Assembly: GCF_965641715.1 (NCBI RefSeq)
Contig: NZ_OZ282453.1
Length of the DNA stretch: 64,000 bases
Direction: 5' to 3' (one strand)
Origin: Escherichia coli
GTDB taxonomy: Bacteria; Pseudomonadota; Gammaproteobacteria; Enterobacterales; Enterobacteriaceae
Positions 45,001-51,000 of the stretch are shown piece after piece. A program made the position numbers. Position 1 is the first letter of the stretch. Each line of letters opens with the position of its first letter.

Positions 45001-48000
45001 ATAGGGAATCGAACCTGCAAATCAGGTAATAAAAAACCGCCATCAGGCGGATTGGTGTTCTTTCAGTTCTTCAATTCGAATATTGGTTACGTCTGCATGC
45101 GCTATCTGCGCCCATATCATCCAGTGGTTATAGCAGTCGTTGATGTTCTCTGCTTCGATAACCCTGTTGAATGGCTCTCCATTCCATTCACCTGTGACTC
45201 GGAAGTGCATTTATCATCTCCATAAAACAAAACTCGCCGTAGCGAGTTCAGATATAATATCCACCAAAGGCAGTAGTTGCTTGATGCTAAGAATTATTCA
45301 ATATCTATTCCTGTAATATCTTTTATCTTTTTCCTTGCAAAGCCTTTTGCTAGTGATTTTGAAACACTCATAAGTGTACTAATTCCCTCATCCTTAAAGT
45401 TTGTTTTTATAGCTTGCCAGACATCCTTTTGACGTAAGTCAGCAATAAAATCATGCCCTCTTGCTGTCAACCTCAGTGGTACTTCGATCCAACTATATCC
45501 AACACCTTCCCCTAACGCTTTGGACATTATATGACCGAACCCAGGTTTTCCATCAACCCTGACTATTAATTCGTAGTCACATAATAATCGCATATGGAAA
45601 ATAAAATCTTGGTCATATCTATTAAAGCCATTATCCTCTAGTTCACTAAGCATCGTGTCAGGGCCACGAGTTTTTTCGAATGCGATAAGTAGATCTTTTA
45701 GATATTGCTGGTCTAATTTCATTGCCGCCTCCGTGACATGTCACAGAGATTTATATCATTAATTTTGTTTCGTGCCAGCGTTTGGTCACCCAGCATTGTG
45801 AGTCACCATTACACGGGCATGAATTAACAGGAACTCTCTCGCCGCACTTACCTCAACGTTTTCTGCTGATCGATTTTATACGCCAGCGCACACGTGCATC
45901 ATCCTGGCGGCTCAGTAACGCGATGTACTCACCAAACTCGCAAGGCGCACGCCTGAAGCGACGCGTGGCACAGTTACGCTCCAGCATTTCAATTTCCTGA
46001 GCATCAAGTACAAGCTCCAGCTTACGCATACCGGATGATGCTTGCTTGGCTCTCCGATCGGCTTTGTGCTCTGTTGCTGATTTAGCCATTCTGCTTTTCC
46101 TGCATCAGGAGAAAGACAATCATGGCGGCGCGGATACTTCCGGTATCTTTTTACGCGATATTCCCCTTCAATGGCACATACAAGAAGAGAGCCATCAACA
46201 GGAGTGATTGAGGAATCGACAACCAGCAACGCTTAATTATCTATAGTGTCGTATTTGCTTCATAAAATATGGCGAATAACACAAAGCCCGCAGCAGCTCA
46301 TTGTGCGGGCTTTTCTTATACCTACTTCCTAGAGATAATTCTATGGAGGCATTAAATCAATACTGTCATTGGTAATATCATATTATCTAAAAGTCTTTCC
46401 ACTTTTAACATCTAGGTATATTCTGTTCGACAACGTCATTCCTCCGCAATATGTGAAATAGATGTTTTCACCCTTATTGCTTGATGCCATCCACCCTCCG
46501 ATTTCCTTAAAATCGCTTTCCGTGCAGACCCCTTCATTTATTAACTTCCTAGCTGCCGAAGAAAACTCTTTTTTGTATATACGGTAGTCATCAGATCCTT
46601 TGATTAAAGTATCATCTCCGCTCGCATTTTCAGCAGGATCTGATGGCCTTTCACTGCTAAGATCACTAAGTTTAACCCATTCTGAAAACTTTCCATTAAC
46701 GATTCCATTTTTTCTTGTGCAGGATTTATTACCTTCTTTAATATATTCGCTTTCCCCTCCAACACATGAGGCTGAATATGGCTCAGTTATACGAACCCAT
46801 TCACCTTTTTTTTCTAGAAAATCTACGCCTTCCCTGAAAAATAGTTTCCCAGCCACTCCACATTTACTTGAAGGGCAGGTATGTCTTTCCGTTCGATCAA
46901 CAACAACCCATAGTTTTGATTCATTTTTTGCCATTGCCGATGGTATTTGAGATGAGACAATTAACGTAAGCCCTAAAATTAGTATTGATTTTTTCATTGT
47001 AATTTCCTTTTACTTTTTACAAAGCGTTTAATCATGGCTGATTATCTCTAAGCGTAGTAACAGCCTTGTGCGAAACATGTTACCAAATCGCCATTTCAGT
47101 GTATCCGCAGTTAGGCTGCCACTTCAAGGATTCCTAATTACATGGTACGTAAGCGTAAAATCCCGTTGGTTGGCGGGTAATAACTCTGATCAAATCTCCC
47201 TTGTCTTTTGCTCTTACGTATGCAGCTCTTGTGTATTCAACCCAGGCCTCCAGTTCAGCAATACGCTTACTTCCATCCGAGATAACACCTTCTACTCACG
47301 CTGCTCGTTGAGTTTTGATTTTTGCTGTCTCCAGCTCAACACGCAGTTTCCCCACCGTTAGCGCAATATCCTCGTTATCCTGGTCGCGGCGTTTGATGTA
47401 TTGCTGGTTTCTTTCCCGTTCATCCAGCAGTGTCAGCACAATCGATGGTGTTACCAGCTCATGGAAAAGGTCCGCGTCAAATCCCCAGTTGTCATGCATT
47501 GCCTGCTCTGCCGCTTCACGCAGTGCCTGAGAGTGAATTACGCTCACTTCGAACCTCTCTGTTTACTGATAAGCTCCAGATATTCCTGGCAACTTGCACA
47601 AGTCCGACAACCCTGAACGGCCAGACGTCTTAGTTCATCTATCGGATCGCCACACTCACAACAATGAGTGGCAGATATAGCCTGGTGGTTCAGGCGGTGC
47701 ATTTTTATTGCTGTGTTGCGCTGTAATTCTTCAATTTCTGATGCTGAATCAATGATGTCTGCCATCTTCCATTAATCCCTAAATTGTTGGTTAATACGCT
47801 TGAGGGTGAATGTGAACAATAAAAAAGGAGCCTGTAGCTCCCTGATGATTTTGCTTTTCATGTTCACCGTTCCTTAAAGACGCCGTTTAACATGCCGATC
47901 GCTAGGCTTAAATGAGTCGGTGTGAATCCCATCAGCGTTACCGTTTCGCGGTGCTTCTTTAGTACGCTACGGCAAATGTCATCGACGTTTTTATCCGGAA

Positions 48001-51000
48001 ACTGCTGTCTGGCTTTTTTGATTTCAGAATTAGCCTGACAGGCAATGCTGCGAAGGGCGTTTTCTTGCTGAGGTGTCACTGAACAAGCCCCATGTCGGCA
48101 AGCATAAGCACACAGAATATAAAGCCCGCTGCCAGAAAAATGCATTCAGTGGTTGTCATACCTGGTCTCTCTCATCTGCTTCTGCTTTCGCCACCATCAT
48201 TTCCAGCTTTTGTGAAAGGGATGTGGCTAACGTATGAAATTCTTCGTCTGTTTCTACTGGTATTGGCACAAACCTGACTCCAATTTGAGCAAGGCTATGT
48301 GCCATCTCAATACTCGTTCTTAACTCAACAGGAGATGCTTTGTGCATACCGCCTCCCGTTTATTATTTATCTTCTCAGCCAGCCGCTGTGCTTTCAGTGG
48401 ATTTCTGATAACAGAAAGGCCGGGAAATACCCAGCCTCGCTTTGTAACGGAGTAGACGAAAGTGATCGCGCCTACCCGGATATTATCGTGAGGATGCTTC
48501 ATCACCATTGCTCCCCAAATACAAAACCAATTTCAGCCAGTGCCTCGTCCATTTTTTCGATGAACTCCGGCACCATCTCGTCAAAACTCGCCATGTAATT
48601 TTCATCCCGCTCAACCACGACATAATGCAGGCCTTCACGCTTCATTCGTGGGTCATAGTTGGCAAAGTACCAGGCATCTTTTCGCGTCACCCACATGCTG
48701 TACTGCACCTGGGCCATGTAAGCCGACTTTATGGCCTCGAAACCACCGAGCCGGAATTTCATGAAATCCCGGGAGGTAAACGGGCATTTCAGTTCAAGGC
48801 CGTTGCCGTCACTGCATAAACCATCGGGAGAGCAGGCGGTGCGCATACTTTCGTCGCGATAGATGATCGGGGATTCAGTAACATTCACGCCGGAAGTGAA
48901 CTCAAAGAGGGCTCTGGCGTCGTTCTCGTACTGTTTTCCCCAGGCCAGCGCCTTAGCGTTAACTTCCGGAGCCACACCGGTGCAAACCTCGGCAAGCAGG
49001 GTGTGGAAGTAGGACATTTTCATGTCAGGCCATTTCTTTCCGGAGCGGGGTTTTGCTATCACATTGTGAACTTCTGAAGCGGTGATGACGCCGAGCCGTA
49101 ATTTGTGCCACGCATCATCCCCCTGTTCGACAGCTCTCACGTCGATCCCGGTACGCTGCAGGATAATGTCCGGTGTCATGCAGCCACCTTCTGTTCAGAG
49201 GCTTTCTGTTTCAGGAATCCAAGAGCTTTCACTGCTTCGGCCTGTGTCAGTTCTGACGATGCGCGAATGTCGCGGCGAAATATCTGGGAACAGAGCGGCA
49301 ATAAGTCGTCATCCCATGTTTTGTCCAGGGCAATCAGCAGAGTGTTAATCTCCTGCATGGTTTCATCGTTAACCGGAGTGATGTCGCGTTCCGGCTGACG
49401 TTCTGCAGTGTATGCGGTATTTTCGACAATGCGCTCGGCTTCATCCTTGTCATAGATACCCGCAAATCCGAAGGCCAGACGGGCACACTGAATCATGGCT
49501 TTATGCCGTAACATCCGTTTGGGATGCGACTGCCACGGCCCCGTAATTTCTCTGCCTTCGCGGGTTTTGAATGGTTCGCGGCGGCATTCATCCATCCACT
49601 CGGTAACGCAGATCGGATGATTACGGTCCTTGCGGTAAATCCGGCATGTACAGGATTCATTGTCCTGCTCAAAGTCCATGCCATCAAACTGCTGGTTTTC
49701 ATTGATGATGCGGGACCAGCCATCAACGCCCACCACCGGAACGATGCCATTCTGCTTATCAGGAAAGGCGTAAATTTCTTTCGTCCACGGATTAAGGCCG
49801 TACTGGTTGGCAACGATCAGTAATGCGATGAACTGCGCATCGCTGGCATCACCTTTAAATGCCGTCTGGCGAAGAGTGGTGATCAGTTCCTGTGGGTCGA
49901 CAGAATCCATGCCGACACGTTCAGCCAGCCTCCCTGCCAGCGTTGCGAGTGCTGTACTCATCCGTTTTATACCTCTGAATCAATATCAACCTGGTGGTGA
50001 GCAATGGTTTCAACCATGTACCGGATGTGTTCTGCCATGCGCTCCTGAAACTCAACATCGTCATCAAACGCACGGGTAATGGCTTTTTTGCTGGCCCCGT
50101 GGCGTTGTAAATGATCGATGCAGAGTGATTCAAACAGGTGCTGGGGCAGACCTTTTTCCATGTCGTCTGCCAGTTCTGCCTCTTTCTCTTCACGGGCGAT
50201 CTGCTGGTAGTGACGCGCCCAGCTCTGAGCCTCAAGACGATCCTGAATGTAATAAGCGTTCATGGCTGAACTCCTGAAAATGGCTGTGAAAATATCGCCC
50301 GCGAAATGCCAGGCTGATTAGGAAAACAGGAAAGGGGGTTAGTGAATGCTTTTGCTTGATCTCAGTTTCAGTATTAATATCCATTTTTTATAAGCGTCGA
50401 CGGCCTCACGAAACATCTTTTCATCGCGAATAAAAGTGGCGATAGTGAATTTAGTCTGGATAGCCATAATTGTTTGATCCATTTTTTGGGACTCCTGGCT
50501 GATTAAGTATGTCGATAAGGCGTTTCCATCCGTCACGTAATTTACGGGTGATTCGTTCAAGTAAAGATTCGGAAGGGCAGCCAGCAACAGGCCACCCTGC
50601 AATGGCATATTGCATGGTGTGCTCCTTATTTATACATAACGAAAAACGCCTCGAGTGAAGCGTTATTAGTATGCGGTAACGCAGCGCTCAGGCGGCTTTG
50701 ATAGTCATATCATCTGAATCAAATATTCCTGATGTATCGATATCGGTAATTCTTATTCCTTCGCTACCATCCATTGGAGGCCATCCTTCCTGACCATTTC
50801 CATCATTCCAGTCGAACTCACACACAACACCATATGCATTTAAGTCGCTTGAAATTGCTATAAGCAGAGCATGTTGCGCCAGCATGATTAATACAGCATT
50901 TAATACAGAGCCGTGTTTATTGAGTCGGTATTCAGAGTCTGACCAGAAATTATTAATCTGGTGAAGTTTTTCCTCTGTCATTACGTCATGGTCGATTTCA

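What the first reader, a model, noticed from the sequence alone, without database searches (positions are those of the whole stretch)
45043..48347. Cluster of uncharacterised small genes between the att end and exo
Eight or nine compact same-strand ORFs (55, 142, 78, 204, 83, 73, 93, 63 aa) occupy the position where lambda carries ea/b-region accessory genes. Only the 73-aa TraR/DksA-type zinc-finger protein has a recognisable fold; the others I could not assign. This is the least-known part of the window and a plausible location for host-takeover or exclusion functions.
Basis: inference. Interest (0 to 1): 0.6.

Follow-up and report, generated by a model that had tools for sequence, protein, structure and literature searches.

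The report
Lambda exo-xis region with swapped-in cargo
This is the well-studied "exo-xis" accessory region of a lambda-like prophage in E. coli: most of its small genes are near-identical to named lambda genes, and a 2-kb middle piece has been swapped for a rare patchwork holding two intact genes of unknown function and three decayed ones.

Summary
The ORFs exist exactly as listed, and each matches a phage protein family. They are not an unassignable cluster.

**Lambda-derived parts.** Window 45028-45259 and 47249-48600 are 95.7% identical in DNA to lambda. They encode:
- orf55
- a frameshifted 5' stump of ea22
- orf73, the TraR-like RNA-polymerase binder characterised in PMC9239242
- full-length orf61
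- orf63 (structure PDB 8DSB)

**The replaced segment.** Window 45260-47248 replaces lambda ea8.5 and the 3' part of ea22. It carries:
- a 204-aa exported protein
- a humD fragment
- a 112-aa gene cut to 78 aa by a nonsense codon
- a 142-aa DUF2513 protein

**The two unknowns.**
- The 204-aa protein has an N-terminal bacterial SH3 (cell-wall-binding) fold. Its C-terminal domain matches no Pfam family or solved structure.
- The DUF2513 protein has a winged-helix fold.

**Frequency.** The segment is complete in 129 of 5,426 complete E. coli genomes. Among 50,697 phage records, only one (Chlobot) carries its two intact genes.

**Defence.** No protein matches a PADLOC defence model.

**Verdict.** This is an ordinary mosaic variant of a known region. 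Its only real unknowns are two cargo genes.

The parts
45043..45210 (-). orf55 homologue (55 aa)
   Evidence: 53/55 identical to lambda lambdap35/orf55. phrog_676, E 3.6e-39. The DNA is 95.7% identical to lambda 29103-29334. A hairpin followed by a U-tract lies at 45037-45050 just downstream.
45294..45722 (-). 142-aa DUF2513 protein with a winged-helix fold
45751..46089 (-). phrog_536 gene, 112 aa when intact; TGA at codon 79 leaves a 78-aa ORF (45853-46089)
   Evidence: Internal stop seen. The gene is intact in Chlobot and AMSHJX01. Strain 13C1065T carries a different stop, at codon 40. phrog_536, E 1.7e-25. No Pfam or PDB match.
46068..46229 (-). humD/umuD'-like internal fragment (remnant)
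   Evidence: NF051876 HumD scores 53 bits against a cut-off of 120, and covers only model positions 47-99 of 129. PGAP annotates it as an incomplete pseudogene.
46275..46314 (-). terminator-like hairpin plus U-tract after the 204-aa gene
   Evidence: GCCCGCAG...CUGCGGGC followed by UUUGUGUUAUU; -19.1 kcal/mol.
46383..46997 (-). 204-aa exported protein: signal peptide, SH3b-like domain and a C-terminal domain with no known family
   Evidence: - phrog_8310, E 1.8e-136.
- AF2 mean pLDDT 90.
- The C-terminal domain has no Pfam or PDB relative.
- Six cysteines are at least 90% conserved.
- GC is 0.37-0.38, against 0.45-0.53 in the flanks.
47249..47547 (-). ea22 5' stump (83-aa ORF 47296-47547); the C-terminal domain is lost
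   Evidence: 72/78 identical to lambda Ea22 residues 1-78, after which the frame is shifted (+1 A, -4 nt). Chlobot carries the same lesion. The PDB structure of the Ea22 C-terminal domain is not matched.
47544..47765 (-). orf73, a TraR/DksA-type C4 zinc-finger protein
   Evidence: 69/73 identical to the lambda Orf73 reading frame. TIGR02419 scores 57.9 bits. PDB TraR chains match at E 1e-5.
47864..48145 (-). orf61, in its full-length 93-aa form
   Evidence: phrog_303 covers residues 1-93, E 1.4e-40. 40/46 identical to lambda orf61 over the shared part. The lambda copy is the truncated variant (PMC8614690 section 4.4).
48156..48347 (-). orf63 (DUF1382)
   Evidence: 59/63 identical to lambda Orf63. 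PDB 8DSB matches at E 7e-33.
   Evidence: 57/60 identical to lambda Orf60a. phrog_1998, E 1.6e-33. It abuts exo (48502-49179).

Best explanation
**What it is.** This is the exo-xis region, the distal part of the leftward early (pL) operon, of a lambda-like prophage.

**Conserved block.** The promoter-proximal block orf60a-orf63-orf61-orf73-ea22 and the last gene orf55 are lambda DNA at about 96% identity. Their likely role follows published lambda and Stx-phage work and was not tested here: they would be expressed early after infection or induction and tune host physiology and the lysis-lysogeny decision. Orf73 would do this by binding RNA polymerase like TraR.

**Replaced segment.** A recombination event replaced lambda ea8.5 and the 3' part of ea22 with a 2-kb patchwork of cassettes from other phages and phage-plasmids.
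1. A moron-like gene for an exported protein. Its N-terminal SH3b domain most likely anchors it to peptidoglycan, and its cysteine-containing C-terminal domain carries the unknown activity.
2. A dead humD fragment.
3. A two-gene DNA-binding cassette: the phrog_536 gene followed by the DUF2513 winged-helix gene. The first gene is inactivated in this strain.

**Shown:** gene identities, mosaic breakpoints, folds, decay lesions and frequency.

**Inferred:** timing of expression, periplasmic location, peptidoglycan binding and DNA binding.
For: - **Identity with lambda.** DNA breakpoints against lambda are and protein identities. The flanking genes (exo, bet, gam, kil, cIII, ral, sieB, cI-like, cro, cII, O, P, Q) are annotated in the 100%-identical E. 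coli TL20 record.
- **Published function of the conserved block.** PMC8614690, PMC9239242 and PMC10834534. PDB 8DSB matches Orf63.
- **Same cluster in a deposited phage genome and other strains.** It is 98.8% identical in phage Chlobot and in strains that carry lambda int/xis next to ybhC.
- **204-aa protein.**
  - A confident model with an SH3b fold.
  - Homologues are exported proteins or lipoproteins with conserved cysteines.
  - In other phages the gene sits alone. In three contigs it lies on the opposite strand: in L120 and L119 inside a head-gene module, and in L123 between an endolysin and a tail gene. In L114 it lies between the lysis genes and the terminase.
  - It has a terminator-like hairpin of its own and low GC.
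- **DUF2513 protein.** Pfam hit and winged-helix fold. The same phrog_536 + DUF2513 pair, with a ~28-bp gap, occurs in Cronobacter prophages.
- **Decay.** Two different nonsense alleles of the phrog_536 gene, the ea22 frameshifts and the humD fragment.
Against: - No expression data exist. No sigma-70-like promoter scoring at least 9/12 was found on the minus strand. Whether the 204-aa gene is expressed in the lysogen or only with pL transcripts is therefore open.
- Pfam SH3_3 reaches only E 0.047 on the query itself.
- The C-terminal domain of the 204-aa protein has no relative of known function, so its activity is a guess.
- Published roles of orf60a, orf61, orf63 and ea22 are phenotypes, not mechanisms. 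The ea22 stump may be inactive.
Confidence: 0.8

Rival explanations
1. The cluster, or its 2-kb middle segment, encodes an anti-phage defence or superinfection-exclusion function expressed from the prophage.
For: - It sits in a variable accessory slot of a prophage.
- The 204-aa protein is exported and moron-like.
- One distant DUF2513 gene lies in a Marinobacter island with PIN, NERD and MqsA-like genes.
- Another lambdoid phage (ev099) has a gene annotated as an LprI-family lysozyme inhibitor among the features under its partial match to the query. Its position relative to ea22 was not checked.
Against: - None of 10 proteins hits a PADLOC model at E <= 0.1.
- No enzymatic or nucleotide-binding domain is present.
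- The genes are co-oriented with the early lytic operon, and no promoter-like site was found.
- The 204-aa family has no conserved neighbour in 58 species.
- Most of the cluster consists of lambda genes with non-defence phenotypes.
Confidence: 0.1
2. The 204-aa exported protein and the DUF2513 protein are a functionally linked pair, for example an envelope sensor or effector plus its regulator.
For: In Marinobacter litoralis a stand-alone homologue of the C-terminal domain lies 80 bp upstream of a DUF2513 gene on the same strand. In the window the two genes are separated only by dead genes.
Against: - Of 58 species-level loci encoding the domain, only the Marinobacter locus has a DUF2513 gene within 6 kb. 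The HMM used was narrow, so distant members could be missed.
- Pseudomonas, Aeromonas and Agrobacterium loci lack it.
- DUF2513 homologues in Serratia and Cronobacter have no 204-aa-type neighbour.
Confidence: 0.04
3. The whole replaced segment is non-functional recombination debris, including the 204-aa and 142-aa ORFs.
For: Three of its five reading frames are demonstrably decayed. It is present in only 2.4% of complete E. coli genomes.
Against: - The 204-aa protein has the same RefSeq protein accession (WP_000748282.1) in the two strains inspected, TL20 and AMSHJX01.
- It is 60-69% identical across Pseudomonas and Aeromonas, with 16 invariant columns and conserved cysteines.
- DUF2513 is intact and conserved across Enterobacterales.
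- Both proteins fold with pLDDT of at least 90.
Confidence: 0.06

Closest known systems
Bacteriophage lambda exo-xis region (orf60a, orf63, orf61, orf73, ea22, ea8.5, orf55)
   Same: Same position, strand and gene order. DNA is 95.7% identical over 45028-45259 and 47249-48600. Proteins are 92-96% identical for orf55, orf73, orf63, orf60a and the ea22 N-terminus.
   Different: - ea8.5 and the ea22 coiled-coil end and C-terminal domain are replaced by a 2-kb foreign segment.
- orf61 is the longer 93-aa form found in Stx phages.
- Excision uses a TorI-type protein rather than lambda Xis.
Escherichia phage Chlobot (PP925838) and about 129 E. coli prophages
   Same: The whole cluster, including the insert and the ea22 lesion, is 98.8% identical.
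   Different: Chlobot and most of these prophages have lambda int/xis and an intact 112-aa phrog_536 gene. The window has TorI and a TGA at codon 79.
F-plasmid TraR / lambda Orf73 (RNA-polymerase secondary-channel binders)
   Same: The 73-aa protein has the two CxxC motifs, is 69/73 identical to lambda Orf73, and matches TraR chains in RNA-polymerase complexes.
   Different: Four substitutions relative to lambda. Activity was not tested here.
Bacterial SH3b cell-wall-binding domains of endolysins, lysostaphin and NlpC/P60 hydrolases
   Different: No catalytic domain is attached. The partner domain is an uncharacterised ~80-aa two-helix, three-strand unit, and the SH3b core carries a cysteine-containing insertion.
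Phage morons (autonomous cargo genes such as lambda bor and lom)
   Same: A single gene with low GC and its own terminator-like hairpin. In other phages it is inserted on the opposite strand within structural or lysis modules.
   Different: Here it is co-oriented with the pL operon, and no convincing promoter was found.

Membership tests
Lambdoid exo-xis region | Lies between exo and xis/att, on the strand of the leftward early operon | tested here: met
   All ORFs are on the minus strand between exo (48502-49179) and the excisionase (44785-44985). bet, gam, kil and cIII lie upstream.
Lambdoid exo-xis region | Conserved block orf60a-orf63-orf61-orf73-ea22, in that order | tested here: met
   Order and identities are. 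ea22 is present only as a frameshifted 5' stump.
Lambdoid exo-xis region | Early transcription from pL with N antitermination | not testable with these tools
   Inferred from the lambda literature (PMC8614690). Four terminator-like hairpins are present on the minus strand within the cluster.
TraR/DksA family (73-aa protein) | C4 zinc finger, two CxxC motifs | tested here: met
   CCEC and CRTC motifs are in the sequence. phrog_54, E 2.5e-25.
TraR/DksA family (73-aa protein) | Curated family HMM score | tested here: inconclusive
   TIGR02419 scores 57.9 bits against a cut-off of 59.7. Against that, the protein is 69/73 identical to the experimentally tested lambda Orf73 (PMC9239242).
TraR/DksA family (73-aa protein) | Binds RNA polymerase and alters initiation | not testable with these tools
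   Shown for lambda Orf73 in PMC9239242; not for this allele.
Bacterial SH3b domain (204-aa protein, N-terminal part) | SH3-like beta-barrel fold | tested here: met
Bacterial SH3b domain (204-aa protein, N-terminal part) | Pfam SH3_3 sequence match | tested here: inconclusive
   E 0.047 on the query. PF08239 is precomputed for 11 of the listed homologues.
DUF2513 (142-aa protein) | Pfam PF10711 match over the whole model | tested here: met
   E 5e-10, model positions 1-100 of 100. Nearly all of the 99 homologues (96) carry PF10711.
Known anti-phage defence systems (PADLOC-DB 2.0) | Any protein matching a defence-system HMM | tested here: not met
   No hits for 10 proteins at E <= 0.1.
HumD/UmuD' (S24 peptidase) | Full-length domain reaching the curated cut-off | tested here: not met
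   53 bits against a cut-off of 120, covering model positions 47-99 of 129 only. It is a remnant.
Ea22 | N-terminal segment, coiled coil and C-terminal domain (PMC10834534) | tested here: not met
   Only residues 1-78 are retained and the C-terminal domain is absent. It is a stump, not a full member.
Moron (204-aa gene) | Own terminator and deviant base composition | tested here: met
   Hairpin of -19 kcal/mol plus a U-tract. GC 0.37-0.38 against 0.45-0.53 in the flanks.
Moron (204-aa gene) | Own promoter | tested here: inconclusive
   No site scoring at least 9/12 on the minus strand, and only one 8/12 candidate upstream. Opposite-strand insertion in other phages implies autonomy there.

The most novel reading that the evidence does not exclude
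The 204-aa protein would define an undescribed family of exported cargo proteins found in phages and islands of Proteobacteria: a peptidoglycan-binding SH3b domain fused to a domain with no Pfam family. Stand-alone ~100-aa exported versions of that domain exist in Agrobacterium, Rhizobium and Marinobacter. The protein would act at the cell wall of the lysogen, for example by blocking incoming phage or foreign peptidoglycan hydrolases, or by modulating the prophage's own lysis.
Probability: 0.2. Interest if true: 0.55.

Novelty: new member of a known kind. Interest (0 to 1): 0.27.

Why it matters
The result mainly corrects the record. The region is not dark matter: it is the lambda exo-xis region, whose conserved genes already have literature, one solved structure and one demonstrated mechanism.

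What remains open is modest but concrete.
- An exported SH3b protein with a domain absent from Pfam. It behaves as a mobile single-gene cargo in phages of several proteobacterial groups.
- A recurring pair of small predicted DNA-binding genes, the phrog_536 gene followed by DUF2513.

Either could be tested cheaply, because a deposited phage genome (Chlobot) carries the same segment.

Tried and rejected
1. **Defence models.** PADLOC on all 10 proteins gave nothing.
2. **Sequence searches for the two unknowns.** NCBIfam, Pfam and PDB sequence searches found only DUF2513 and a weak SH3_3 hit.
3. **C-terminal domain of the 204-aa protein.**
   - The profile search of PDB hit de novo TIM barrels. 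This is an artefact, because each stretch scores only about 7 bits and the hit sums over four repeats.
   - Pfam found nothing, for the profile or for any of 23 members.
4. **Linked pair hypothesis (204-aa domain plus DUF2513).** It was prompted by Marinobacter. It was rejected after 58 species-level loci showed only that one co-occurrence and no neighbour conserved across genera.
5. **Rfam** at E <= 1 over 44000-49500: no RNA family.
6. **Plus-strand 97-aa ORF** (47068-47361), annotated in Chlobot: no PHROG match, probably spurious.
7. **Literature.** No papers mention DUF2513, the protein accessions, the PHROG ids or Chlobot.
8. **The 112-aa phrog_536 protein.** No Pfam or PDB match, and only a sub-threshold NCBIfam hit (E 0.007) to the YbfE-type 'LexA regulated protein' model.
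Full report
**Setting.** The window matches the E. coli TL20 chromosome at 100% identity. From about 44.7 kb rightwards it carries a lambda-like prophage.
- Comparison with a second strain places the host/prophage junction near 44695.
- A TorI-type excisionase follows at 44785-44985, with no integrase beside it. In the KplE1 prophage family the integrase lies at the other end (my own knowledge, not checked here).
- To the right of the finding lie exo, bet, gam, kil, cIII, ral, sieB, a cI-like repressor, cro, cII, O, P, the nin genes, Q and the lysis genes.
- The finding therefore covers the distal end of the leftward early operon.

**Observation.**
- One search lists the stated ORFs at the stated coordinates, all on the minus strand.
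- Every one matches a PHROG family, with E-values from 1e-25 to 1e-136. They are real conserved coding sequence or remnants of it.
- GC drops to 0.37-0.38 over 45250-45750 and 46250-47000, against 0.45-0.53 around them.

**Comparison with lambda.**
- blastn against lambda gives two blocks at 95.7% identity. Window 45028-45259 equals lambda 29103-29334, and window 47249-48600 equals lambda 30094-31449.
- Protein identities to lambda:

| Gene | Identity to lambda |
|---|---|
| orf55 | 53/55 |
| Ea22 residues 1-78 | 72/78 |
| Orf73 | 69/73 |
| Orf63 | 59/63 |
| Orf60a | 57/60 |

- Orf61 is present in the 93-aa form. The 61-aa lambda protein is a truncated variant, as Donaldson noted (PMC8614690 section 4.4).
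- The 63-aa protein matches the Orf63 NMR entry 8DSB at E 7e-33.
- Relative to lambda, ea22 carries a +1 A in an A-run and a 4-nt deletion. Its homology ends near lambda codon 102, so the coiled-coil end and the C-terminal domain are gone. The same lesion is present in phage Chlobot.

**What is published on these genes.**
- The review PMC8614690 calls orf60a-orf63-orf61-orf73-ea22 the conserved block of the exo-xis region. It is transcribed early from pL and followed by a variable set of genes.
- Deletion studies label orf60a, orf61 and orf63 pro-lytic, and orf73 and ea22 pro-lysogenic.
- Lambda Orf73 binds RNA polymerase, inhibits rRNA and ribosomal-protein promoters, slows host growth and raises burst size (PMC9239242).
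- Orf55 has only a speculative model resembling T7 Gp2 (PMC8614690 section 5.1).

**The replaced 2 kb (45260-47248).** It stands where lambda has ea8.5 and the 3' part of ea22.
- It is complete in 129 of 5,426 complete E. coli genomes.
- Its two intact proteins occur in a single phage record, Chlobot, out of 50,697. One Klebsiella phage also has a 48%-identical DUF2513.
- In Chlobot and in strain AMSHJX01 the same cluster is joined to lambda int/xis at the ybhC site. The integration module was therefore swapped at about 45028.

**The 204-aa protein.**
- It begins with a Sec-type signal sequence (MKKSILILGLTLIVSSQIPSAMA|K). Many homologues have a lipobox cysteine instead.
- Homologues at 60-69% identity occur in Pseudomonas and Aeromonas, and the broader family reaches Vibrio, Rhodobacteraceae and others.
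- Sixteen alignment columns are invariant. Six cysteines are at least 90% conserved, which fits disulfide bonds in the periplasm; that last point is inference.
- The AlphaFold model is confident (mean pLDDT 90).
- Residues ~125-204 form a unit of two main helices and three strands with no match in PDB or Pfam. This unit also exists alone as ~100-aa exported proteins in Agrobacterium, Rhizobium and Marinobacter.
- The family has no conserved neighbour outside Vibrio synteny.
- In other viral contigs the gene sits alone:
  - between Rz-type spanin and large terminase (L114);
  - on the opposite strand between head-decoration and major-head genes (L120, L119);
  - on the opposite strand between an endolysin and a tail gene (L123).
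- In Pseudomonas it follows an island integrase.
- This is the pattern of a moron. In the window the gene has a terminator-like hairpin of -19 kcal/mol, but no convincing promoter was found.

**The 142-aa protein and its partner.**
- It is a full-length DUF2513 (Pfam E 5e-10).
- The gene 29 bp upstream is a phrog_536 gene. It is 112 aa when intact, and the cysteine-rich tail looks like a zinc ribbon, which I read from the sequence and did not test.
- In the window a TGC-to-TGA change cuts it to 78 aa. Strain 13C1065T has a different stop, at codon 40. Two independent nonsense alleles suggest relaxed selection in lysogens.
- The same pair, with the same spacing, lies just upstream of the small terminase gene in Cronobacter prophages. 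It therefore moves as a cassette.
- phrog_536 genes alone are common in E. coli prophages next to NinX or ASCH genes, and occur near the genome end of epsilon15-like phages.

**The humD piece.** It covers only positions 47-99 of the 129-position HumD model, at 53 bits against a cut-off of 120. Intact humD occurs in the ~112-kb plasmids that share short stretches with this segment.

**Defence.** No PADLOC model matched any of the 10 proteins, and no nuclease, ATPase or other enzymatic domain is present. The one hint was a Marinobacter island in which the stand-alone C-terminal domain sits next to a DUF2513 gene among PIN, NERD and MqsA-like genes. It did not generalise: only 1 of 58 loci showed the pairing.

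**Verdict.** This is a mosaic variant of the known lambdoid exo-xis region.
- Its conserved genes are already named and partly characterised.
- Three ORFs in or at the edge of the replaced segment are remnants.
- The two intact cargo genes are a probable peptidoglycan-binding exported protein and a probable DNA-binding winged-helix protein. Their functions are unknown and are the only part worth bench work.

Noticed in passing
window 44695-45040: The excisionase is TorI-type (KplE1-like) with no integrase beside it. The junction with lambda-like DNA is at ~45028. Other strains and phage Chlobot join the identical cluster to lambda int/xis at the ybhC site, so the integration module has been swapped.
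   Followed up: partly
window 35762-43681 (+) and upstream: A 2,639-aa autotransporter, annotated in the matching genome as the phase-variable adhesin UpaE, abuts the prophage end. The ipuA and ipuB invertases and an HTH regulator lie upstream of it.
   Followed up: no
window 47772-47867 (-): A 31-aa GTG ORF lies between orf61 and orf73 and contains a terminator-like hairpin (47825-47843). Lambda ribosome profiling reported a 31-aa peptide (orf2313) in this conserved block (PMC8614690). Identity was not verified, and there is no PHROG hit.
   Followed up: partly
window 45751-46089; L008 3992-4330: The phrog_536 gene carries two different nonsense mutations in two E. coli strains, at codon 79 here and at codon 40 in 13C1065T. 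It is intact in Chlobot and AMSHJX01.
   Followed up: yes
L075-L077, 4635-5429: In Cronobacter prophages the phrog_536 + DUF2513 pair sits immediately upstream of the small and large terminase genes. This raises a possible link to packaging or late regulation.
   Followed up: partly
L012 5001-5763 (Marinobacter litoralis): A stand-alone exported homologue of the 204-aa protein's C-terminal domain lies next to a DUF2513 gene, in an island with PIN7, NERD, Exo_endo_phos and MqsA-like genes. It is the only such co-occurrence among 58 loci.
   Followed up: yes
L123 2144-6597: In one Pseudomonas-type viral contig the 204-aa homologue lies within 2.5 kb of intact umuD/umuC-like genes and next to an endolysin. 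The window has a humD remnant next to its copy. This may be coincidence.
   Followed up: no
PDB 8DSB: The chain that matches Orf63 (E 7e-33) is labelled 'Xis (Excision72)' in the PDB molecule name. The name appears to be carried over from the old lambda GenBank feature text.
   Followed up: no
window 58147-58302 (+): tRNA-Asn and tRNA-Thr genes lie downstream of the Q antiterminator gene of the prophage.
   Followed up: no
window 43729-44259 (+): A 176-aa ORF with an N-terminal hydrophobic segment lies between UpaE and the prophage end. It is annotated as hypothetical and has only a marginal PHROG hit.
   Followed up: no
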